From: a virus
Taxonomy: Duplodnaviria > Heunggongvirae > Uroviricota > Caudoviricetes
DNA length: 37,433 bases
Virus record (IMG/VR): IMGVR_UViG_2718217716_000005
Direction: 5' to 3' (one strand)
Part shown: one piece after another, positions 1 to 29,284 of the stretch
How positions within the stretch are numbered: position 1 is the first letter of the stretch
Layout: each line of letters starts with the position of its first letter
Position numbers and translations under genes: made by a program
The notes under the pieces: generated by a model
Databases searched by the model: none
What the model was told of the DNA's origin: nothing
The model's input: only the letters and a program-made list of their open reading frames with translations

Positions 1-738
1 TCATTCACTCTCTTTCAAACCAGTTTTAACTGTTTGTGGTTTTGGGTAAGGCTGGACTTTGAATAGCTTTGTGTTAAGGCGTTTTCTGGCTCTCTTGTCC
101 AGAAACCGGATGTAACGAAACTGACGGAATTTATGAACACTGGCTCTGTCGATATTAGCCCGCAGATGTTCACCTCTCTGTCCGCCTCGTTTAATGGCAT
201 TCCTGCAAATCTCGTGATACCACTCGCCATCAAGTTCATAGAATGTTGTTTCATGGCTGCCTACATAATCAAAATTGCTTGCCTGGTACACGACACCAAG
301 ACAGCCACAACGCTCATCTGCAAACGACTGAACCCACTGTACCTGCGGATAAAGCTGTCTGATTAGTTTGAGTGCGTAACTGATGGCCCTTGATTCGGAG
401 TTTCTCGGCATACAGTCATGCAGCCATAACCGGTTAAGCTCCATATATTCGCGGTTCTGCGTGCCCGTTACGACGCGTGCACCACTGTTTGGATTAAGGG
501 CATAGCCCCATTGCATTACGCCAACCAGCTCCCGTTCTGAAAATATACCCAGATGCAGGTAGGAATTATTTACGAAACGGTGGCTGTAATGTTTATTGAC
601 GATGACCAGTCTGGCCAGCCAGCAACTTATTGTCTCAACCCGTAATTCACGGGAACCATAACCGACGATATTGTCGTTATAGTGAATAAGTTCAGGCGTG
701 CTGATGATACGGGATGTGACTTGCTTTCTGTTCCCCAC
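1..738 (-). CDS. mom: Mom-like DNA modification protein; start uncertain (GTG at 736-738 proposed, preceded by AAGGAAA; the full ORF reaches 933)
   Basis: Last gene at the Mu right-end position, overlapping the 3' end of a Com-like zinc-finger ORF in another frame, as in Mu com-mom. Stop TGA at 1-3. No in-frame ATG near the com stop. Confidence 0.7.
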
Positions 739-892
739 GACAGGATTTCCTTGTGTATGTGGGGTGCTCTGTGGCGCTCTGAGATGTGATTTGATTGAGG
801 GTTTTACAGCGCGGACATTTGACTTCCAGATAACTGAAGCTGGCTCGTGCCAGTAGCTTGTTGCAATGTCGGCACCGTATGTTTCGATACAT
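692..892 (-). CDS. com: Com-like zinc-finger translational activator of mom
   Basis: Small ORF with CxxC...CxxC ([14 protein letters not shown]...KCPRCK), immediately upstream of and overlapping mom. Start taken at the internal Met at 890-892 rather than 937. Confidence 0.7.
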
Positions 893-1149
893 GGCCGCAT
901 AACCTCCTGCTTTGTTGTTGATATCTTTATCACTCAATCGATCGACAAAAACGATCGATTTGATTTATTTAATTGATACAACAAATAACACGAAATGTCA
1001 TTAGCGAAAATTTATGAGTTTGATCACTAATTTTAAAAGGTGCTGTAACGCATAAGTGCTGAATAATTGTACATTTGAATGCCGCAAAGCAAAAAAAATA
1101 AACTAATTGATAAAAATCAATCAGTTAACTGCAAGCGTAAGAGGCTGTT
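893..1149. promoter_or_regulatory. AT-rich divergent control region: candidate mom-operon promoter with three GATC sites and palindromes, plus promoter of the plus-strand gene at 1150
   Basis: GATC at 940-943, 953-956, 1022-1025. Inverted repeat atcgatcg / cgatcgat around 937-959. Possible -35 TTGAAT / -10 TAAACT for the plus strand. Confidence 0.45.
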
Positions 1150-1443
1150 ATGGACAATCATGTAACGACGAGAAATCGAAAAATGATTGAAAACGCGGAG
1201 ATCTATAATGATTATTTTTCCGATTATTCAGATGTCTGCAAATACAGTTCGAGTGCGGGAGAGTTCATATGCTTCAACTTTTTTATTAAATCTTATGTTT
1301 TTCCTCCACAGAAAGAAGATGGAGGTGTGCCACCTCCTGAAATCACTTTGCACCGTATAGCCTCCGTCTCAATGATGGAGCAACAGGCTAATGAGCTGTA
1401 TAGCATTCTGGGAATGATTCTACAAAAGCGTGAATCGGACTAA
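1150..1443 (+). CDS. Hypothetical protein (97 aa), low-GC, divergent from com-mom
   Basis: ATG at 1150 preceded by TAAGAGG at 5-nt spacing. Lower GC than the phage backbone. No recognisable motif. Confidence 0.45.
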   Translation: MDNHVTTRNRKMIENAEIYNDYFSDYSDVCKYSSSAGEFICFNFFIKSYVFPPQKEDGGVPPPEITLHRIASVSMMEQQANELYSILGMILQKRESD

Positions 1444-1578
1444 TGATACCGGTTCATTTGCCTGCCAGGATGGGGAAGCAGGATAGACTGCTCCATAAAC
1501 AGCTATATTTCTGAATACGAAATACTATCCAGCTATTACATATGGCTGGATAGCGGCAAAGATGTTTTCATTAGTGTC

Positions 1579-1613
1579 AAACCGGCAGAGGACACCACCG
1601 GTTTGTATTTTTA
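1579..1613 (+). terminator. Stem-loop (aaaccgg ... ccggttt) followed by a T-run on the plus strand
   Basis: 7-bp stem at 1579-1585 / 1598-1604, then gtattttta. Lies downstream of the 1150-1443 gene and overlaps the stop of the minus-strand ORF 1611-1865. Confidence 0.4.
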
Positions 1614-1865
1614 CATCATGGTACTGTCAGCTCCGGGCTGAGCTGGTTCTGGTTGCTCTGGCTGCGCGTCGGTTTTCGGCTCATTATCAGCATCACTGGC
1701 CGCAGCAGCTGGTCCAATAAGTTTTGCCAGCACCTCGTCAACGTAAGTGTCGATTTGTGCCTCAAAATCTTTGCGGACCTGCGCTTTCAGCAACTTATTT
1801 ACTTCACCGGAATACAGTGCCTGTTTTACCAGGTCTTCAGTGACGGTGCCTTTAATTTCTGGCAT
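1611..1865 (-). CDS. Hypothetical acidic protein (84 aa)
   Basis: Strong ribosome-binding site AAGGAGG with 6-nt spacer before ATG at 1865. Helical N-terminus, acidic Pro/Glu/Gln-rich C-terminus. Confidence 0.55.
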   Translation of the reverse strand: MPEIKGTVTEDLVKQALYSGEVNKLLKAQVRKDFEAQIDTYVDEVLAKLIGPAAAASDADNEPKTDAQPEQPEPAQPGADSTMM

Positions 1866-1900
1866 GTATATCCTCCTTATGCGGGAATACAGCCCTGCAA

Positions 1901-2083
1901 TCAGGGCTGGGTCGGGCCTTTTGGGAGCGGAGCGGCCTGTGCTGTTTTACTGAGCTTTTCGGCTGCTGCGTCATCAATTTTGCGGCGAACATAATTTCTG
2001 ATGGCTTTATATCCACTGCTCACCAGATATAACGCACATACCGCCGTGCAGAAATAAAGCAGCATCGTATGAACAAATGTCAT
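1901..2083 (-). CDS. Hypothetical small membrane protein (60 aa, one predicted transmembrane helix)
   Basis: AAGGTAAGG-type ribosome-binding site. Hydrophobic stretch MLLYFCTAVCALYLV followed by a basic region. Confidence 0.45.
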   Translation of the reverse strand: MTFVHTMLLYFCTAVCALYLVSSGYKAIRNYVRRKIDDAAAEKLSKTAQAAPLPKGPTQP

Positions 2084-2197
2084 ATAACCTTACCTTTGAT
2101 ATTGACTACAGAAACAGTTTTCAGCTAAAAAGTAACCGCGTACATAATGGCCTTCTTTTCAGAGGTTGTAGCTTTCCTTAATGGGTTTGGAATATCA

Positions 2198-2241
2198 CCC
2201 GCCAGTCAACAAATGGCTCTTTGACCGGCGGGATTTTTTTA
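2198..2241 (+). terminator. Stem-loop cccgccagtcaa ... ttgaccggcggg followed by T7 on the plus strand
   Basis: Seen directly. The T-run is on the plus side only, so it is an efficient terminator only for plus-strand (antisense) transcription; on the minus strand it is a stem-loop without a U-tract just 3' of the esterase gene. Confidence 0.45.
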
Positions 2242-2247
2242 TCCTGC

Positions 2248-4317
2248 TTACGCGTTATTCACTTCCACCACAATGCTGTCAATCAGCACCGGGTATGTTG
2301 CACCGTTAGTGATATCGGTCACGCGTAACTTGTCTGCCGTAAACGTGCCAACCGGAGACTGCGACAGCATGAATGGTGTCCCGTCCTTACCATCAATGAC
2401 CGGCGTCACCTCAATACTGTTGTTACCGGCAAAACGGAAGCCCAGCGTATGCCACTCATTATCAAATGCGCTGAATGCCCCCAGCTTCGTGTTCTGCGCC
2501 GTGTTTCCCTTGTGATACATCACGTTAAGGTCTGTGGCATCGCTCTGTACGTAGAACGACGCCAGCAGGTTATGACCGGCATTACCTTCCAGAGTAACCC
2601 CTTGTGGCAGGGCAGAAACCGGCCAGTACAGCGCCAGTGCGTACTGATTAGCCGTAAGCGCGCCATCGAGTTTAAAACGACAACTGACAAGACCACCTTT
2701 ACCCAGCAGGTCCGCACCATTACCGGCATCATGCTCAAGATACCAGGAGGATTTGCCTGTTTCCTTGGTCAGTTTCATGGCCTTACCACTACCAGCTCCG
2801 GCATCATCCACGATTTGAGCCTTACCGCCTCCGGCAGTCCAGCCCTGTGGTGCCAGCTGTCCTTCAGACTCTGATGCCCGGTAAGCAAACAGGGTGCTCA
2901 TCGTCGTGGTGTCAGCCGGTGGTGTGGACGGTGTATCCGGCGATGGTGTTGATGGCGTGTCAGGTGATGGTTTTTCATCCGGCTGTGTCACAACCGGTCC
3001 CTGCATCACTTCAGGTGTGCGTCCCGCATGGAGCAGAATGGCTGAGGCCAGACGGTCTGAAATAATGCCCCTGCGTGCCCATGAGCTGAAATGGCTGTCA
3101 CGCTGTGTCGAGACAAAACTGCCCTGGGTACGGGATGCCGCACCGTAATACCCGACAGTCACAATATCCGGGTCTTCCGCCTGAGCATTCGTTGGCGTGT
3201 TCTGTCCATTCTCATCCGTCAGGAAAGGTACAAAGAAAATATTCTGAGTTTCCTTGCCTTTGTAGCCACCGTATACCGCCTCATATTTATCGGTGCCAGC
3301 GTTTTTCCAGTAATACGTGGTATCACCACAAATCCACGGTACCGTGCCAGCATTTCCACTCACGCACTGCGCAGCAAGCGGAGACAGGTCAGTTCTGAAC
3401 TGCTGAACCATGGTCGTGAATAAACCATTATGCTGCTGACTTCCCGATGCAAGGTCTGCTTCTCCCTGCATCCAGACCACAGCCAGAAGTTTGTTTTTCG
3501 GGTTCTTCGCCAGCGCCGCTCTGGTACGGCTTACCAGGTCCTGATACAGAGGTTTACCGACTCCCCAGCGTGAAGAATCAGCGGAAGCACCGCTGGTCTC
3601 ACTGAATGAACCGTCCGCCCCGGTGGTAAATGCTGACCCACCACGGCAACAGGGCACCAGAAGAATCCCGGCATTCTGCGGGATATAAGGCAGCAGTTTT
3701 TTGGCAATATGCAGCCCCTGACCGACAGTCCCGTACTGGCCTTTTGCCAGATCAGCTTTCGGGTGGTTTATCCCGCTCATATCCTGCACATCATGCAGGC
3801 AGTGATCTGCCGGAATGATGTCGTTATATGTACACGACGTACCGTCGGGCGTGACCGTGCTGCGGCGTGCCAGTTGCTTAATCCGTGGGTCCGGGCGGTC
3901 AAATGAATCCGGTAACGGAAGCCCTTCACCATAGGCCATGCCATTTGATTGTCCCGCCAGTGGGATCACATAGTAATACTCCGGCTCTGTGGTACTGCCA
4001 TTCGTGCTGCCGGAAGGCCCGGCGTTATCCGGTGCATTCCAGTCGGAGGGCGTGAGTGTTCCGGCCACGTCAGCTGTAATCGGAATGATGCCGGTCACGC
4101 CTGAACTGGTGATTTCTGCACTGGGATTACCGGATACCGGCATTATCCATAATGGCTCTTTCGTGCTGAAGCGGATCACGCAGTCTGCGAAGGTGATCCC
4201 CCCTTTATTACCCGAAGGCCTGAAAGGACTTTCAATAAATGCCACCGTGCCACCGGCAACCTTGACTGAAAACTCTCCGGGCATGGCGGAGAGCATTTTC
4301 CACTGGGAGTCTGACAT
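2248..4317 (-). CDS. Multidomain protein: N-terminal region, SGNH/SASA-type O-acetylesterase-like domain, Pro/Thr linker, C-terminal lectin-like beta domain (689 aa)
   Basis: Motifs YVIPLAGQSNGMAYGEG (GQSN nucleophile motif), VVWMQGEAD, DSHF (Asp/His of triad); linker PSPDTPSTPSPDTPSTPP; C-terminal ~220 aa Gly/Asn/Thr-rich. Sits where Mu carries the G segment and gin. Confidence 0.7.
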   Translation of the reverse strand: MSDSQWKMLSAMPGEFSVKVAGGTVAFIESPFRPSGNKGGITFADCVIRFSTKEPLWIMPVSGNPSAEITSSGVTGIIPITADVAGTLTPSDWNAPDNAGPSGSTNGSTTEPEYYYVIPLAGQSNGMAYGEGLPLPDSFDRPDPRIKQLARRSTVTPDGTSCTYNDIIPADHCLHDVQDMSGINHPKADLAKGQYGTVGQGLHIAKKLLPYIPQNAGILLVPCCRGGSAFTTGADGSFSETSGASADSSRWGVGKPLYQDLVSRTRAALAKNPKNKLLAVVWMQGEADLASGSQQHNGLFTTMVQQFRTDLSPLAAQCVSGNAGTVPWICGDTTYYWKNAGTDKYEAVYGGYKGKETQNIFFVPFLTDENGQNTPTNAQAEDPDIVTVGYYGAASRTQGSFVSTQRDSHFSSWARRGIISDRLASAILLHAGRTPEVMQGPVVTQPDEKPSPDTPSTPSPDTPSTPPADTTTMSTLFAYRASESEGQLAPQGWTAGGGKAQIVDDAGAGSGKAMKLTKETGKSSWYLEHDAGNGADLLGKGGLVSCRFKLDGALTANQYALALYWPVSALPQGVTLEGNAGHNLLASFYVQSDATDLNVMYHKGNTAQNTKLGAFSAFDNEWHTLGFRFAGNNSIEVTPVIDGKDGTPFMLSQSPVGTFTADKLRVTDITNGATYPVLIDSIVVEVNNA

Positions 4318-4621
4318 CGTCTTTTCTGCCTGTTTCTGAATTAAACAGAGTCAGAATAACAACCGCTGATAAATATGTGTTTTGCGGAAATTCAAAAAAA
4401 GCGTCACAGTACTTTTCGTGACGGAGCCGGTGAGGCAGGAACATAACGACAAAGAATGGACAGGCCAATACGATAACCGCATATTACCGGCTTATAATTG
4501 ATTTAACGATTCATGACGCTGCGTTCAGCACCTGAAAATATGCGTTATTTCAGAAACCCCTTGCCTGTATATGGCAATAGTATTGTTCCTGTTTTTATCA
4601 TTGATTTACATGGTGATGTTT

Positions 4622-5143
4622 ATGCAACTGATTAATGTTAAACGATATTACCCGGAACACAAACCCTATGGTAATGATGTACAGTATTTTCAGAGTGATG
4701 ATGGTAAGGATTTCTATGAGTCCCTGCCATTATTCACCAAAAAATATAAACTTTGTATAACACCTGACAGCGGCGTTATCTGCTCAATATCACAGGACGC
4801 CTCGGCGCTGTATCCTGCGGGATTTTCCGTGGTTGAGACAGACGAACTCCCTGAAGGCACTGATATTTCAGGAAACTGGAAGTTTGATAATGGCATCATC
4901 TCACGGCTTCCGGTCAATTACGACAAAAAAGCGGAAGAACTGCGCCAGTCATATCTTAATCAGGCATATGAACAAATTAATGACTGGAGAACAGAACTAC
5001 AACTGGGCACCATCAGTGATGAAGACAGAGCAGCACTGGCACGATGGATGGCATACATCAGTCAGGTGAAAAAAATGGTATTACCCGCCATTAAAACTGA
5101 AGCTGAATTTAACGCCATTAAATGGCCTGAGCAGCCACAGTAA
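4622..5143 (+). CDS. Tail fibre assembly chaperone (Tfa family)
   Basis: C-terminus ...DEDRAALARWMAYISQVKKMVLPAIKTEAEFNAIKWPEQPQ and central DASALYPAGFSVVE / GNWKFDNG are typical of Tfa proteins. Start chosen at Met 4622; the ORF could begin at 4571 or 4610. Confidence 0.7.
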   Translation: MQLINVKRYYPEHKPYGNDVQYFQSDDGKDFYESLPLFTKKYKLCITPDSGVICSISQDASALYPAGFSVVETDELPEGTDISGNWKFDNGIISRLPVNYDKKAEELRQSYLNQAYEQINDWRTELQLGTISDEDRAALARWMAYISQVKKMVLPAIKTEAEFNAIKWPEQPQ

Positions 5144-5146
5144 TAA

Positions 5147-5166
5147 AGAAGGCCGGAAGGCCTTCT
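5147..5166. terminator. Bidirectional hairpin terminator between convergent tail fibre and Tfa genes
   Basis: agaaggcc-ggaa-ggccttct, perfect 8-bp stem, with A-rich sequence before and T/A-rich after. Confidence 0.6.
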
Positions 5167-5174
5167 GAATATCA

Positions 5175-6056
5175 TTATATACTTGCAGCCGTCACCCATG
5201 ATCCATTTAACAGATACTGCAACGGCCGGTAATACACGCCGCCGACGTTATCTGCCGTATTCTTACCGACATCCTGTACTTTAATTCCGGTAAGAACATT
5301 GCCGCCCCCCAGATTCAGATCCCAGCTTTCCCATGTTCCGGGCATATGTGCGGTCACCGACCCCAGTCTTATGGCGGTTACTGTTCCTGATGAGATAGTG
5401 ATATCCTGCGTCCCGTCAAAGGGAACACCATTAATTGTGTGGGCATTTGCCAGCCTGTTCGCGGCAACGGCCGTTCCGTTCGATGGCAGGGCATTCGCCG
5501 CCCTGTTTACCGTTTCCCGTAAACCGACGTTATCGATAAAAGCCCCTTTATTCGGAATGTCTGCGCCGTGCTGCTCCCTGCGCAGGTAACGGTTATCACC
5601 TTCGCTCTTGCTGTAAACATCCAGATTATTACGGGCGGTTACCTTATTCTCCAGGTCGGCGAGATTCTGATCCTTCGCCAGGGCATTAACGTCACCGGGA
5701 CCAAGACTGTTTTTTGTGGCAAGCGTCCCCAGACCAAGATAACCACGGGCAAGACGCTGGGCCTCCGCACCGGCATCAGCAATTTCTTTCAGGTTATTTT
5801 TCCGGGAAAAAGCATTCGCAGCGATAATGGCTTTAATGGACAGCGTAAGCTGGTTTAACTGCGCCTTATCCGGCTGAATATTGGCTTCAGCCAGAATATT
5901 CAGCAGTTCGGCCTGGAGAATATTCAGCCAGTCCTGACCAATCCAGCTGATACCTTTTTGTCCGTCACCTTCGGTAAACCAGGTGGTGGTATTACTCTGC
6001 GCCGGTGCCAGCGCAGGCATATTCGCCACGCCGGAATTATTATCAACATGAAACAT
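5175..6056 (-). CDS. Tail fibre protein (short, ~293 aa; Mu S position)
   Basis: Follows the baseplate genes with ATG overlapping the upstream stop. Gly/Asn/Thr-rich C-terminus and coiled segments typical of fibre distal domains. The ORF track extends to 6110 but the overlapping Met at 6054-6056 is preferred. Confidence 0.7.
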
Positions 6057-16063: not shown

Positions 16064-16330
16064 ATGTCATCAGAAAATCAACCATCACCAGAGATTCAGT
16101 TCGCTCATGACCTTGTAAATGGGTTAGCTATTGCGGTGAATATTCTGATCCAGAAACTGGAACAGGACGGAACACTGTCCATGAATGAATTTCTGGACAA
16201 ACTTCGTCAGCAACACACTGGTTTACTCGCACAGAACCAGAAAACTATCGCTCATGGCGTCAACCTGCTTTTGGGATCGCTTGAGTATGTGACGACCACG
16301 AAGAGCGACCAGACAAATCAAGCTCACTAA
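16064..16330 (+). CDS. Hypothetical helical protein (88 aa), opposite-strand insertion inside the tail cluster
   Basis: ATG at 16064 preceded by TAAGGAG at 5-nt spacing. Lower GC than flanking genes. Followed by its own stem-loop. Confidence 0.55.
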   Translation: MSSENQPSPEIQFAHDLVNGLAIAVNILIQKLEQDGTLSMNEFLDKLRQQHTGLLAQNQKTIAHGVNLLLGSLEYVTTTKSDQTNQAH

Positions 16331-20597: not shown

Positions 20598-20718
20598 ATT
20601 GCCTCCGCATAAAGGATGAATATAAAATAAACAGGCGGTCAGTGTACGCTTAACTGGTAAAGTCGGTGCCTGCCTCCGGGTGGATCATGTATGCGGGTTC
20701 GACCCCCGCCACTGACCG

Positions 20719-28942: not shown

Positions 28943-29284
28943 ATGACTTTTGGCCCCATCATTGAGTTTGAATCAGGCTATACCGATGACATGTACCAGT
29001 CCCTGCAGGATAATGGTATCAGATACACCCCTATTGCAGCTTTATCATACAATGTAACCGAAATGGTTGAGTTGCTCCATGCGGTTAACACGCCAGAAAC
29101 ATGGGCCGCTATTGTTCTCATCGTAAAAAAATGGATAAACCGACACAAGGATGCCAGTGTTGAATTAACCATGAATGAGAACGGGCAACTGACATCCGTA
29201 AAAATAAACGGCTACAACGTAAATGATCTGGATAAGCTTGGAGTACCCAGTTTGATTCGAGCTTCTTTTAAATCAGAGGAGTAA
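28943..29284 (+). CDS. Hypothetical protein (113 aa), opposite-strand low-GC insertion between GemA and the Mor/C activator
   Basis: ATG at 28943 after a very AT-rich 270-bp leader, followed immediately by a terminator hairpin. No recognisable motif. Confidence 0.6.
   Translation: MTFGPIIEFESGYTDDMYQSLQDNGIRYTPIAALSYNVTEMVELLHAVNTPETWAAIVLIVKKWINRHKDASVELTMNENGQLTSVKINGYNVNDLDKLGVPSLIRASFKSEE

What the first reader, a model, noticed from the sequence alone, without database searches (positions are those of the whole stretch)
1150..2247. Cluster of three small low-GC genes next to mom
A plus-strand 97-aa gene with a strong ribosome-binding site is divergent from com-mom. Two minus-strand genes follow the esterase gene: a 60-aa single-pass membrane protein and an 84-aa acidic protein, both with good ribosome-binding sites. 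The two flanking stem-loops have their U-tracts on the plus strand only, so the esterase and the two small genes may be co-transcribed. None has a recognisable motif. Small membrane plus soluble pairs at prophage ends are often exclusion or toxin-immunity modules; that is a guess here.
Basis: inference. Interest (0 to 1): 0.45.

Follow-up and report, generated by a model that had tools for sequence, protein, structure and literature searches.

The report
Esterase-module small genes plus orphan moron
The three small genes are not one cluster: two are the always-present tail of a phage sialic-acid esterase cassette already known from Shiga-toxin phages (here in a Mu-like prophage), a probable small-RNA gene lies between them and the esterase, and the third is an unrelated orphan gene in a swappable cargo slot.

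Summary
The ORFs, ribosome-binding sites and both hairpins with plus-strand U-tracts are real. The grouping and "no recognisable motif" are wrong.

The window is a complete Mu-like prophage, 100% identical over the tested stretch to one in E. coli M3. The 60-aa gene is Pfam DUF1378 and the 84-aa gene is DUF826. In 80 of 80 viral contigs DUF1378 is followed by DUF826. In 78 of 78 with upstream DNA it follows a NanS-p-type esterase. This holds in Mu-like (27) and lambdoid or Stx (53) backbones. Both genes are under purifying selection (dN/dS 0.05-0.23). Their function is unknown. I infer a membrane-anchored pair transcribed with the esterase.

The plus-strand hairpin and T7 run next to the esterase stop, with a conserved TTGACW-N17/18-TAAAAA motif, looks like a ~105-nt antisense sRNA gene. 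It sits where the Hfq-dependent sRNAs PasA and PasC map in EPEC. Sequence membership in PasA/PasC was not shown.

ORF97 (39.5% GC) lies in a variable slot (1002-1576) that holds other small genes in sister prophages. Its only distant homologue sits just downstream of the cI repressor gene (where I recall lambda carries rexAB) in lambdoid prophages. No defence or toxin family matched.

Moderately interesting, mostly known parts.

The parts
1..738 (-). mom (context, Mu-like right end)
   Evidence: Pfam Mom 260 bits; annotated 'protein mom' in the identical E. coli M3 prophage.
692..892 (-). com (context)
   Evidence: Pfam Zn_ribbon_Com 47 bits; annotated Com family regulator.
1002..1576 (.). Variable cargo slot between com and DUF826. 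It holds ORF97 with its own 5' and 3' flanks.
   Evidence: blastn against 15 Mu-like relatives: homology stops at 1001 and resumes at 1577-1582. Other prophages carry different small genes here, all about 40% GC.
1150..1443 (+). ORF97, an orphan 97-aa acidic protein and stand-alone accessory gene
   Evidence: AAGAGG Shine-Dalgarno. Only close E. coli/Shigella relatives. One remote homologue, P0078, among 1.84 billion representatives, E 3.7e-4, collinear, same length. dN/dS 0.40 against the 80% variant. No Pfam, PHROG, NCBIfam or PADLOC hit.
1525..1553 (+). 12-bp inverted repeat in the 3' flank of the ORF97 cargo
   Evidence: the repeat finder I2, 92% complementary, 5-nt loop.
1573..1612 (.). 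Hairpin between the convergent ORF97 and DUF826 genes. The U-tract is on the plus strand only and the stem is stronger on the minus strand.
   Evidence: Plus strand -11.5 kcal/mol followed by GUAUUUUU. Minus strand -16.7 kcal/mol, z -3.65, no U-tract. It lies in the part conserved with DUF826. A hairpin at the same place in Mu_JNE082796 is my reading of the aligned flank, not computed.
1611..1865 (-). DUF826 gene (84 aa): cytoplasmic, long amphipathic helix plus acidic disordered tail ending in -MM
   Evidence: Pfam PF05696 57 bits, phrog_311. AlphaFold2 helices 10-17 and 20-50 with block-mean pLDDT above 90 for residues 21-50; tail below 55. dN/dS 0.05-0.12.
1901..2083 (-). DUF1378 gene (60 aa): single N-terminal transmembrane segment and basic C-terminal part
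   Evidence: Pfam PF07125 112 bits, phrog_494. Hydrophobic segment at residues ~3-21, pI 9.6. dN/dS 0.18-0.23. Followed by DUF826 in 80 of 80 loci.
2102..2131 (+). Sigma-70-like promoter of the candidate antisense sRNA (TTGACT-N18-TAAAAA)
   Evidence: Only match in the 37-kb window, 0.02 expected. The looser pattern TTGAC[AT]-N16-19-[TGC]A[ATG]AA[ATC] is kept in 36 of 40 distinct intergenic variants. TTGAC is invariant in the alignment with the PasA and PasC promoters.
2138..2241 (+). Candidate ~105-nt sRNA, antisense to the esterase-DUF1378 junction. Intrinsic terminator 2198-2232 plus T7 at 2234-2240, ending 7 nt from the esterase stop codon.
   Evidence: Fold. A covariance model built from other alleles (window type excluded) hits 2160-2241(+) at 28.4 bits, E about 8e-4, the top hit. 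Same place and orientation as PasA and PasC in E2348/69.
2248..4317 (-). NanS-p-type esterase (689 aa), first gene of the module
   Evidence: Pfam SASA 48 bits plus DUF6645 224 bits, phrog_143. 55-66% identical to lambdoid NanS-p proteins.

Best explanation
The 1.1-kb stretch is the junction of three separate units at the right (mom) end of a Mu-like prophage.

(1) DUF1378 and DUF826. These two genes are the constant distal genes of the phage-borne NanS-p sialate-O-acetylesterase cassette: esterase, DUF1378, DUF826, hairpin. In lambdoid and Stx prophages the same cassette lies between stx and the holin gene S (after Q in 933W and Sakai Sp5). Shown here: family membership, invariant linkage, purifying selection. 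Inferred:
- They are read through from the esterase transcript.
- The basic single-pass inner-membrane protein DUF1378 has its C-terminus in the cytoplasm.
- It recruits the acidic coiled-coil-like DUF826 into a membrane-anchored complex.
- That complex serves the esterase cassette or a late envelope step, and is not a prophage-end exclusion or toxin-immunity pair.

(2) A candidate small RNA gene. The plus-strand hairpin and T7 run next to the esterase stop is the terminator of a small antisense-oriented transcription unit. The promoter is at 2102-2131 and the RNA spans about 2138-2241. It is the positional counterpart of the Hfq-dependent prophage sRNAs PasA and PasC. It is fully complementary to the esterase-DUF1378 junction of the operon mRNA, so it could modulate expression of the two small genes or the stability of the esterase 3' end (inferred).

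(3) ORF97. It is an independent, low-GC orphan gene with its own flanks, in a cargo slot (1002-1576) that carries other small genes in sister prophages. It is most likely an accessory gene expressed in lysogens (inferred).

My estimates: organisation 0.85; sRNA gene real 0.65; DUF1378-DUF826 complex 0.5; role tied to the esterase 0.3; ORF97 is a real protein 0.7.
For: - Prophage identity and layout.
- Pfam and PHROG membership.
- Same gene order in Stx phages 75/02 and 933W, PhiR5_2 and Sakai Sp5. The literature notes DUF826 and DUF1378 ORFs between nanS-p and S (PMC10462455).
- 80 IMG/VR loci: DUF826 follows DUF1378 in 80 of 80. The esterase precedes it in 78 of 78 with upstream DNA. 27 are Mu-like (com/mom or gin nearby) and 53 lambdoid.
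- dN/dS 0.05-0.23 for the pair.
- DUF826 model: one confident long helix and a disordered acidic tail. Opposite net charges of the two proteins.
- sRNA: a conserved antisense promoter and T-run in 36 of 40 intergenic variants. The motif is unique in the window. The TTGAC box and the T-run are shared with the PasA and PasC loci. PasA and PasC are mapped by RNA-seq and Northern blot, downstream of the esterase and in the opposite orientation (Table S6 of PMC8550237; 'esterase-PasA-holin-lysozyme'). An independent covariance model hits 2160-2241(+), E about 8e-4.
- ORF97: slot boundaries and alternative cargos. The same position in prophages at four different insertion sites. A remote homologue just downstream of cI.
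Against: - No expression data exist for this prophage.
- The function of DUF1378 and DUF826 is unknown everywhere. Nothing informative came from PDB profile searches.
- The esterase occurs without the pair in E2348/69 PP2 and PP5, so the pair is not needed for the esterase gene to persist.
- Linkage could partly reflect physical closeness.
- Sequence-level membership of the RNA element in PasA/PasC failed. Model R1 gave 8.8 bits, E 5.9. Model R2 does not find PasA or PasC significantly.
- The RNA fold is not unusually stable (z -1.34). The terminator stem shows almost no covariation.
- No promoter for ORF97 was found by the consensus scan.
- ORF97 dN/dS is only 0.40, with no third-position bias. 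Truncated variants exist. Its structure model is unusable (pLDDT 56).
Confidence: 0.65

Rival explanations
1. Type I toxin-antitoxin-like unit. DUF1378 is a small membrane toxin. Its translation is held down by the divergent antisense sRNA pairing with its 5' UTR (about -55 to -158), as IstR-1 does for tisB or OrzO for zorO. DUF826 would be an extra modulator.
For: A 60-aa single-TM protein with a charged tail. A conserved sRNA-like unit starts 18-26 nt upstream of its start codon on the other strand, in 36 of 40 variants. The comparison with tisB/istR-1 and zorO/orzO is from established knowledge, not tested here.
Against: The sRNA counterparts PasA and PasC persist without DUF1378 in E2348/69. 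They are Hfq-dependent RNAs with many trans targets. DUF826 is always present too, which the type I model does not need. The RNA is not complementary to the RBS or the coding region.
Confidence: 0.12
2. Lysis-timing pair. DUF1378 and DUF826 act as a holin-like or antiholin-like membrane-plus-cytoplasmic pair (compare T4 RI and RIII) that tunes the pinholin and SAR-endolysin lysis of the phage.
For: In 52 of 53 lambdoid loci the pair lies about 80-300 nt upstream of holin S, typically about 80 nt. The layout is a small membrane protein plus a soluble partner. In 933W a hairpin followed by a T-run separates DUF826 from S (my reading of the alignment, not computed).
Against: In 27 Mu-like loci the pair stays with the esterase next to com-mom, about 25 kb from the lysis genes. 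No holin family hit.
Confidence: 0.15
3. One reading: a protein-protein exclusion or toxin-immunity module typical of prophage ends.
For: A small membrane protein plus a soluble acidic protein. ECs1211 (DUF826 of Sakai Sp5) is listed among genes whose expression changed (-3.29) at a growth transition in a batch-culture microarray study.
Against: No significant PADLOC match (only a marginal PbeC hit for DUF826, E 0.049). The pair is not an end feature in lambdoid phages. It is strictly linked to the esterase.
Confidence: 0.1
4. The plus-strand hairpins are only transcription insulators. They would stop antisense read-through from ORF97 or outside into the esterase, and no discrete sRNA is made.
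For: Rfam finds nothing. Fold z-score is only -1.34. The stem is conserved by sequence rather than by covariation.
Against: The same antisense terminator is kept in lambdoid phages, where the annotated neighbouring genes from stx to Rz all run the other way (bor further downstream is opposite). A promoter-like motif lies at a fixed distance upstream in 36 of 40 variants. RNAs of matching size are seen experimentally at this position in EPEC.
Confidence: 0.25
5. ORF97 is not a functional gene. It would be a decaying or chance ORF in AT-rich filler DNA.
For: dN/dS 0.40, mismatches spread evenly over codon positions. Truncated or frameshifted versions occur in several genomes. No family hit. Poor structure model.
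Against: The frame is intact with a strong Shine-Dalgarno in the window, in 9 IMG/VR loci plus one cut at a contig end, and in an 80%-identical variant at four insertion sites. A collinear 97-aa homologue at 29-31% identity occurs in lambdoid prophages, E 3.7e-4 against 1.84 billion proteins.
Confidence: 0.22

Closest known systems
nanS-p (SASA esterase) to holin S region of Stx and lambdoid prophages (933W L0105 region; Sakai ECs_1207, ECs_1210, ECs_1211)
   Same: Same three gene families in the same order and spacing. The same antisense hairpin and T-run follows the esterase stop, and a hairpin follows DUF826.
   Different: Here the cassette sits in a Mu-like transposable prophage, between the tail-fibre region and com-mom. 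It is not downstream of Q, pR' and stx, and no holin follows. The esterase N-terminus gives no DUF1737 hit. Protein identities are only about 40-66%.
PasA and PasC prophage sRNAs of EPEC E2348/69 (EHEC EcOnc51/52)
   Same: Encoded just downstream of the SASA esterase gene on the opposite strand. TTGAC -35 box, A-rich -10, and a GCCAG-containing terminator stem with a T7 run ending at the esterase stop.
   Different: The body sequence is unrelated, and covariance models do not link them significantly. In E2348/69 no DUF1378 or DUF826 follows. Expression and Hfq dependence are untested for the window element.
Region between cI and N in lambdoid prophages (where I recall lambda carries rexAB), and phage 'morons' in general
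   Same: The only remote homologue of ORF97 lies just downstream of cI in lambdoid prophages. ORF97 itself is a low-GC gene with its own flanks on the strand opposite to the late genes.
   Different: No similarity to RexA or RexB was seen and none was tested directly. No defence-family hit. ORF97 stands alone, whereas the lambdoid homologue heads a three-gene set.
Type I toxin-antitoxin loci with a divergent sRNA (tisB/istR-1, zorO/orzO)
   Same: A small single-TM protein gene with an sRNA-like unit transcribed divergently from just upstream and complementary to the upstream mRNA.
   Different: Toxicity is unknown. A second protein gene is always attached. The sRNA counterpart exists without the protein gene elsewhere. 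The comparison rests on recalled knowledge.
Phage Mu gin-com-mom right end
   Same: com and mom are present, with GATC-containing dyad symmetry upstream. Relatives carry a gin-like invertase upstream of the esterase.
   Different: Mu as I recall it has no esterase cassette between gin and com. The window prophage lacks gin.

Membership tests
Pfam DUF1378 (PF07125) | Profile score above the gathering cut-off over the full ~59-residue model | tested here: met
   112.1 bits against cut-off 25, residues 1-58 on model 1-58 of 59; phrog_494.
Pfam DUF826 (PF05696) | Profile score above the gathering cut-off | tested here: met
   57.1 bits against cut-off 25, residues 1-55; phrog_311 full length.
NanS-p esterase cassette of lambdoid/Stx prophages | SASA catalytic domain plus DUF6645 C-terminal domain | tested here: met
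   SASA 48.4 bits (cut-off 24.8); DUF6645 224 bits.
NanS-p esterase cassette of lambdoid/Stx prophages | Gene order esterase, DUF1378, DUF826 | tested here: met
NanS-p esterase cassette of lambdoid/Stx prophages | Located in the Q/pR' late operon, directly upstream of holin S | tested here: not met
   The backbone is Mu-like. com-mom lie downstream and the lysis genes about 25 kb away.
NanS-p esterase cassette of lambdoid/Stx prophages | N-terminal DUF1737 domain of NanS-p | tested here: not met
   No DUF1737 hit at E up to 0.1. phrog_143 covers only residues 71-689.
NanS-p esterase cassette of lambdoid/Stx prophages | 9-O-acetyl sialate esterase activity | not testable with these tools
   The GQSNG block is visible in the sequence. 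There is no enzymology.
PasA/PasC sRNA family | Encoded downstream of the prophage SASA esterase gene on the opposite strand | tested here: met
   against window 2102-2241(+).
PasA/PasC sRNA family | Own promoter and a 3' stem-loop with poly-U | tested here: met
   TTGACT-N18-TAAAAA, unique in the window. Hairpin plus T7.
PasA/PasC sRNA family | Sequence and structure similarity to PasA or PasC | tested here: not met
   Model R1 (lambdoid alleles plus PasA and PasC): 8.8 bits, E 5.9. Model R2 finds the window (28.4 bits) but not PasA or PasC; the best hit is PP2 unit 2 at 14.9 bits, E 0.43.
PasA/PasC sRNA family | Expressed, Hfq-dependent RNA | not testable with these tools
   No transcriptome for this prophage.
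Type I toxin-antitoxin | Small hydrophobic membrane peptide of about 60 aa or less | tested here: met
   60 aa, one hydrophobic segment.
Type I toxin-antitoxin | Antisense RNA pairing with the toxin mRNA | tested here: inconclusive
   The candidate RNA is complementary to -55..-158 only if the mRNA starts upstream, by read-through from the esterase. It has no overlap with the RBS or the coding region.
Type I toxin-antitoxin | Toxicity relieved by the RNA | not testable with these tools
   Needs experiments.
Known anti-phage defence systems (PADLOC) | Match to a defence-protein profile | tested here: not met
   No significant hit for any of the three proteins or the esterase (only a marginal PbeC hit for DUF826, E 0.049), nor for the ORF97 homologue and its neighbours.
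Holins | Membership of a holin family, or adjacency to an endolysin | tested here: not met
   DUF1378 is the only Pfam family above its cut-off; a sub-threshold Brr6_like_C_C hit (E 0.014) was the only other. The endolysin is about 25 kb away in this prophage.

The most novel reading that the evidence does not exclude
DUF1378, DUF826 and the antisense RNA form a self-contained regulated membrane device that travels with the signal-peptide-less esterase. One version is a holin/antiholin-like release system for the enzyme without full phage lysis. The other is a type I-like toxin switch controlled by a Pas-type sRNA. Either would give the first function to two DUF families found in about 300 deposited phage records in this search (mostly Stx-converting) and in Mu-like prophages.
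Probability: 0.12. Interest if true: 0.65.

Novelty: new member of a known kind. Interest (0 to 1): 0.36.

Why it matters
DUF1378 and DUF826 lie next to the toxin and lysis genes of many Shiga-toxin phages, yet they have no assigned function.

The same esterase, DUF1378, DUF826 triplet is kept intact in an unrelated Mu-like transposable prophage, together with its antisense RNA signals. That argues it is a functional, mobile unit and not filler. It also gives a simpler, non-Stx background in which to test it.

It extends the likely range of Pas-type prophage sRNAs to Mu-like prophages. It also points to a small variable cargo slot next to com-mom as a place to look for new accessory genes.

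Tried and rejected
- Rfam on the whole window and on the sub-regions gave nothing. The weak Esr41 hit in 933W (28 bits against a cut-off of 102) probably reflects only the terminator. Esr41 itself is on SpLE1, not in this kind of locus.
- NCBIfam gave no hit and PADLOC no significant hit (only a marginal PbeC hit for DUF826, E 0.049).
- Profile searches against PDB sequences gave only noise.
- The ORF97 AlphaFold2 model has pLDDT 56, so I ran no fold search. The DUF826 model is essentially one long helix, so a fold search would be uninformative and I did not run it.
- A supposed DUF1378-DUF826 fusion is not real. The 933W 148-aa ORF is an over-extended GTG ORF in another frame, and P0096 and P0120 are frameshift artefacts.
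- A scan of GTDB species representatives for DUF1378 found only a spurious partial match. The family looks confined to Escherichia and Shigella mobile elements.
- Covariance model R1 was too weak (3 base pairs) to test PasA/PasC membership properly.
- Literature searches for DUF1378, DUF826, their Pfam and InterPro numbers, the Sakai and EDL933 locus tags, EcOnc51/52, and nanS-p together with Mu-like found no functional study.
- The neighbours of the ORF97 homologue have no counterpart in the window.
Full report
**What the window is.** Bases 900-2300 are 100% identical to E. coli strain M3. The annotation of that genome shows a complete Mu-like prophage in reverse orientation. It runs mom, com, tail, head, lysis, Mor, Gam, transposase B and A, then the repressor region, and it is inserted into flgL of the lateral-flagella cluster. 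Pfam confirms Mom and Com at the start of the window. The finding therefore lies at the right (mom) end of a Mu-like prophage.

**The observation.**
- The ribosome-binding sites are AAGAGG (ORF97), AAGGAGG (84 aa) and AAGG (60 aa).
- The 60-aa protein has one N-terminal hydrophobic segment and a basic remainder (pI 9.6). The 84-aa protein is acidic (pI 4.3).
- Both hairpins exist, and each has a U-tract only on the plus strand.
- 'Low GC' applies only to ORF97 (39.5%). The other two genes are 49-50%, against 53.9% for the window.
- 'None has a recognisable motif' is wrong. The 60-aa protein is Pfam DUF1378 (112 bits) and the 84-aa protein is DUF826 (57 bits). Both also match PHROG families of unknown function.

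**The two minus-strand genes belong to the esterase cassette.** The 689-aa upstream protein has a SASA domain plus DUF6645, which is the NanS-p type.
- The order in Stx phage 75/02, in 933W and in Sakai Sp5 is stxAB, SASA esterase, DUF1378, DUF826, holin S, endolysin. PhiR5_2 has the same order from the esterase onwards but no stx.
- A 2023 survey of Stx2a phages mentions DUF826 and DUF1378 ORFs between nanS-p and S, without assigning a function.
- I fetched 80 IMG/VR loci carrying DUF1378 and typed their neighbours by tblastn. DUF826 follows in 80 of 80. The esterase precedes in 78 of 78 loci that have upstream DNA.
- Twenty-seven loci are Mu-like, with com-mom downstream and often a gin-like invertase upstream. 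Fifty-three are lambdoid, with a holin about 80-300 nt downstream (typically about 80 nt) in 52 and a contig end in the other.
- A second Mu-like phage, inserted in a Stx2c phage record, has gin, esterase, DUF1378, DUF826, com, and a C5 methyltransferase in place of mom.
- The pair is under purifying selection: DUF826 dN/dS 0.05-0.12 and DUF1378 0.18-0.23.
- The esterase can exist without the pair, as in E2348/69 prophages PP2 and PP5. I did not see the reverse.
- The apparent DUF1378-DUF826 fusions in databases are annotation or frameshift artefacts.
- The family is confined to E. coli and Shigella.

**What the pair may do.** Nothing is known experimentally, and several literature searches found no functional study.
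- AlphaFold2 gives DUF826 a short helix, then a confident 31-residue helix, then a disordered acidic Pro/Glu-rich tail that ends in a conserved -MM or -MML.
- From the sequence, I read a heptad-like spacing of hydrophobic residues in the long helix (my reading, not computed).
- DUF1378 has a transmembrane segment followed by a basic stretch, RRKID..AAEK.
- From the opposite charges, the constant adjacency and the constant order, I infer a membrane-anchored two-protein complex made from the esterase transcript.
- Which process it serves is open. Comparative context favours a link to the esterase cassette over a link to the lysis genes, because the pair stays with the esterase when the cassette sits far from the lysis genes in Mu-like phages.
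- No known defence family matches significantly.

**The plus-strand terminator next to the esterase is probably an sRNA gene.**
- The hairpin 2198-2232 plus T7 ends 7 nt from the esterase stop, on the strand opposite to the genes. The same arrangement is present in the other Mu-like phage and in 933W.
- In 933W the annotated neighbouring genes from stx to Rz all run the other way, so it is unlikely to be a terminator for a neighbouring gene there.
- About 100 nt upstream lies TTGACT-N18-TAAAAA. This is the only match in the 37-kb window, with 0.02 expected.
- Among 40 distinct esterase-DUF1378 spacers from 72 loci, 36 keep a looser form of this motif at a fixed distance from the DUF1378 start codon. 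Nearly all have a T-run 75-105 nt downstream of it.
- In EPEC E2348/69 the Hfq-dependent sRNAs PasA and PasC were mapped exactly here. They lie downstream of the SASA esterase gene on the opposite strand (orientation '> < >'). PasC, and the minor long form of PasA, end at the esterase stop (Table S6 of PMC8550237; sequences).
- The PasA and PasC promoters share the invariant TTGAC, and their terminators share a GCCAG core and the T-run with the window element.

**Limits of the sRNA evidence.**
- A covariance model built only from other alleles (Mu types B and C and lambdoid types; the window type was left out) finds window 2160-2241(+) as its top hit, at 28.4 bits and E about 8e-4. The window element therefore belongs to the family of DUF1378-linked antisense elements.
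- Neither model ties that family significantly to PasA or PasC themselves. I call it a positional and architectural counterpart, not a proven member.
- The fold is not unusually stable (z -1.34). The terminator stem is conserved by sequence, with one compensatory pair.
- The RNA body is hypervariable. Near-identical Mu-like prophages carry at least three alleles, and similarity drops out between 2057 and 2226 in several of them.
- The RNA would be fully complementary to the esterase-DUF1378 junction of the operon mRNA. It could therefore act in cis, as well as in trans like the Pas RNAs (inference).

**ORF97 is a separate unit.**
- blastn of window 600-2300 against 15 Mu-like relatives shows homology ending at 1001 and resuming at 1577-1582.
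- The intervening 575 bp holds ORF97 with 148 bp upstream and 133 bp downstream, including a 12-bp inverted repeat at 1525-1553.
- In other prophages this stretch is replaced by different low-GC cargos. These are a 64-aa zinc-ribbon ORF, a 175-aa zinc-ribbon membrane protein, or a convergent pair of roughly 70-aa ORFs.
- ORF97 is intact in 9 of the 27 Mu-like IMG/VR loci, plus one cut by a contig end. An 80%-identical, 100-aa variant occupies the same place in prophages at four different chromosomal sites.
- That variant lacks the internal Met used by the public annotation, so the 1150 start is the better one.
- A word-indexed search found only close E. coli and Shigella relatives, some truncated.
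- A full HMMER scan of 1.84 billion representatives added one distant homologue, P0078: 97 aa, 29-31% identity, collinear, E 3.7e-4.
- P0078 lies just downstream of the cI repressor gene in lambdoid prophages. In one of four loci an N-peptide gene lies further on. I recall lambda carries rexAB at this position. It heads a set of three small genes of unknown function.
- Coding constraint on ORF97 is modest (dN/dS 0.40) and its structure model is unusable. I rate it a real but fast-evolving accessory gene (0.7), function unknown.

**The hairpin at 1573-1612.** It lies in the conserved flank of DUF826, between the convergent ORF97 and DUF826 genes. It is more stable as minus-strand RNA (z -3.65) but carries its U-tract on the plus strand. 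I read it as the shared end of both transcription units: an intrinsic terminator for ORF97 and a 3' hairpin for the esterase operon.

**Comparison and verdict.** The closest known thing is the nanS-p to S region of Stx and lambdoid prophages. The window carries the same cassette in a different phage type, without Q, stx or an adjacent holin, and with a different esterase N-terminus. No paper in the searchable library mentions nanS-p together with Mu-like phages. The parts are members of known families of unknown function, so I class this as a new member of a known kind. The useful new points are these:
- The strict three-gene linkage across two phage backbones.
- The conserved antisense sRNA-like unit inside the cassette.
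- The variable cargo slot next to com-mom.

Noticed in passing
window 2057-2226: The candidate sRNA body and the 5' edge of DUF1378 form a hypervariable patch. Mu-like prophages with 87-98% identical flanks carry at least three unrelated alleles (about 75, 95 and 105 nt), all keeping the same promoter box and T7 terminator.
   Followed up: partly
window 936-960: Perfect 9-bp inverted repeat AATCGATCG/CGATCGATT with GATC sites, just upstream of com. It resembles the Dam/OxyR-controlled regulatory region of the Mu mom operon (recalled knowledge).
   Followed up: no
window 4318-6056: No gin invertase lies between the tail-fibre region and the esterase, although relatives have one (L012, L005, many IMG/VR loci). 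A tail-fibre assembly gene (4571/4622-5143, +) converges on the 293-aa tail protein gene (5175-6056, -). This looks like a locked or degenerate invertible segment.
   Followed up: no
window 4402-4423 (- strand): Terminator-like hairpin with a T7 run about 85 nt upstream of the esterase start, on the esterase strand. The esterase cassette may therefore need its own promoter; no clear one was found.
   Followed up: no
window 1150-1443: The public annotation (PGAP) starts this gene at ATG 1183 (86 aa). The 80% variant has Thr at that position and conserves the upstream 11 codons, so ATG 1150 with its AAGAGG site is the likelier start.
   Followed up: yes
window about 20638-20717 (+): The M3 genome annotation has a 'tRNA-OTHER' here. 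ARAGORN finds no tRNA in the window, and Rfam at gathering threshold finds nothing.
   Followed up: partly
window about 16064-16330 (+) and 28943-29284 (+): Two more small hypothetical genes lie on the strand opposite to the phage late and early operons. They may be further accessory inserts.
   Followed up: no
L006 (933W) 5308-5754: The RefSeq 148-aa 'hypothetical protein' of 933W is an over-extended GTG ORF that overlaps DUF1378 in another frame. The real genes are a 59-aa DUF1378 (5262-5441) and a 90-aa DUF826 (5482-5754).
   Followed up: yes
L013-L016, 8001-8951: Three-gene set (97, 95 and 123 aa; the last is phrog_5954) just downstream of the cI repressor gene in lambdoid prophages. It is uncharacterised and has no PADLOC or Pfam hit, so it is a candidate lysogen-expressed system.
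   Followed up: partly
L022, L026, L031, L046 (cargo slot equivalent to window 1002-1576): An alternative cargo consists of a 68-76-aa plus-strand ORF and a convergent 66-78-aa minus-strand ORF. L027 keeps only the latter.
   Followed up: no
L007 2765-2846 (-), E2348/69 PP2: Between PasA and the esterase stop lies a second PasC-like unit with its own TTGACA box and terminator. This would explain the 236-nt 'minor form' of PasA as read-through across two tandem units.
   Followed up: partly
outside the window (L002, E. coli M3): The prophage splits flgL of the lateral-flagella (Flag-2) cluster. Sister prophages sit at at least five other chromosomal sites, consistent with Mu-type transposition.
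   Followed up: partly
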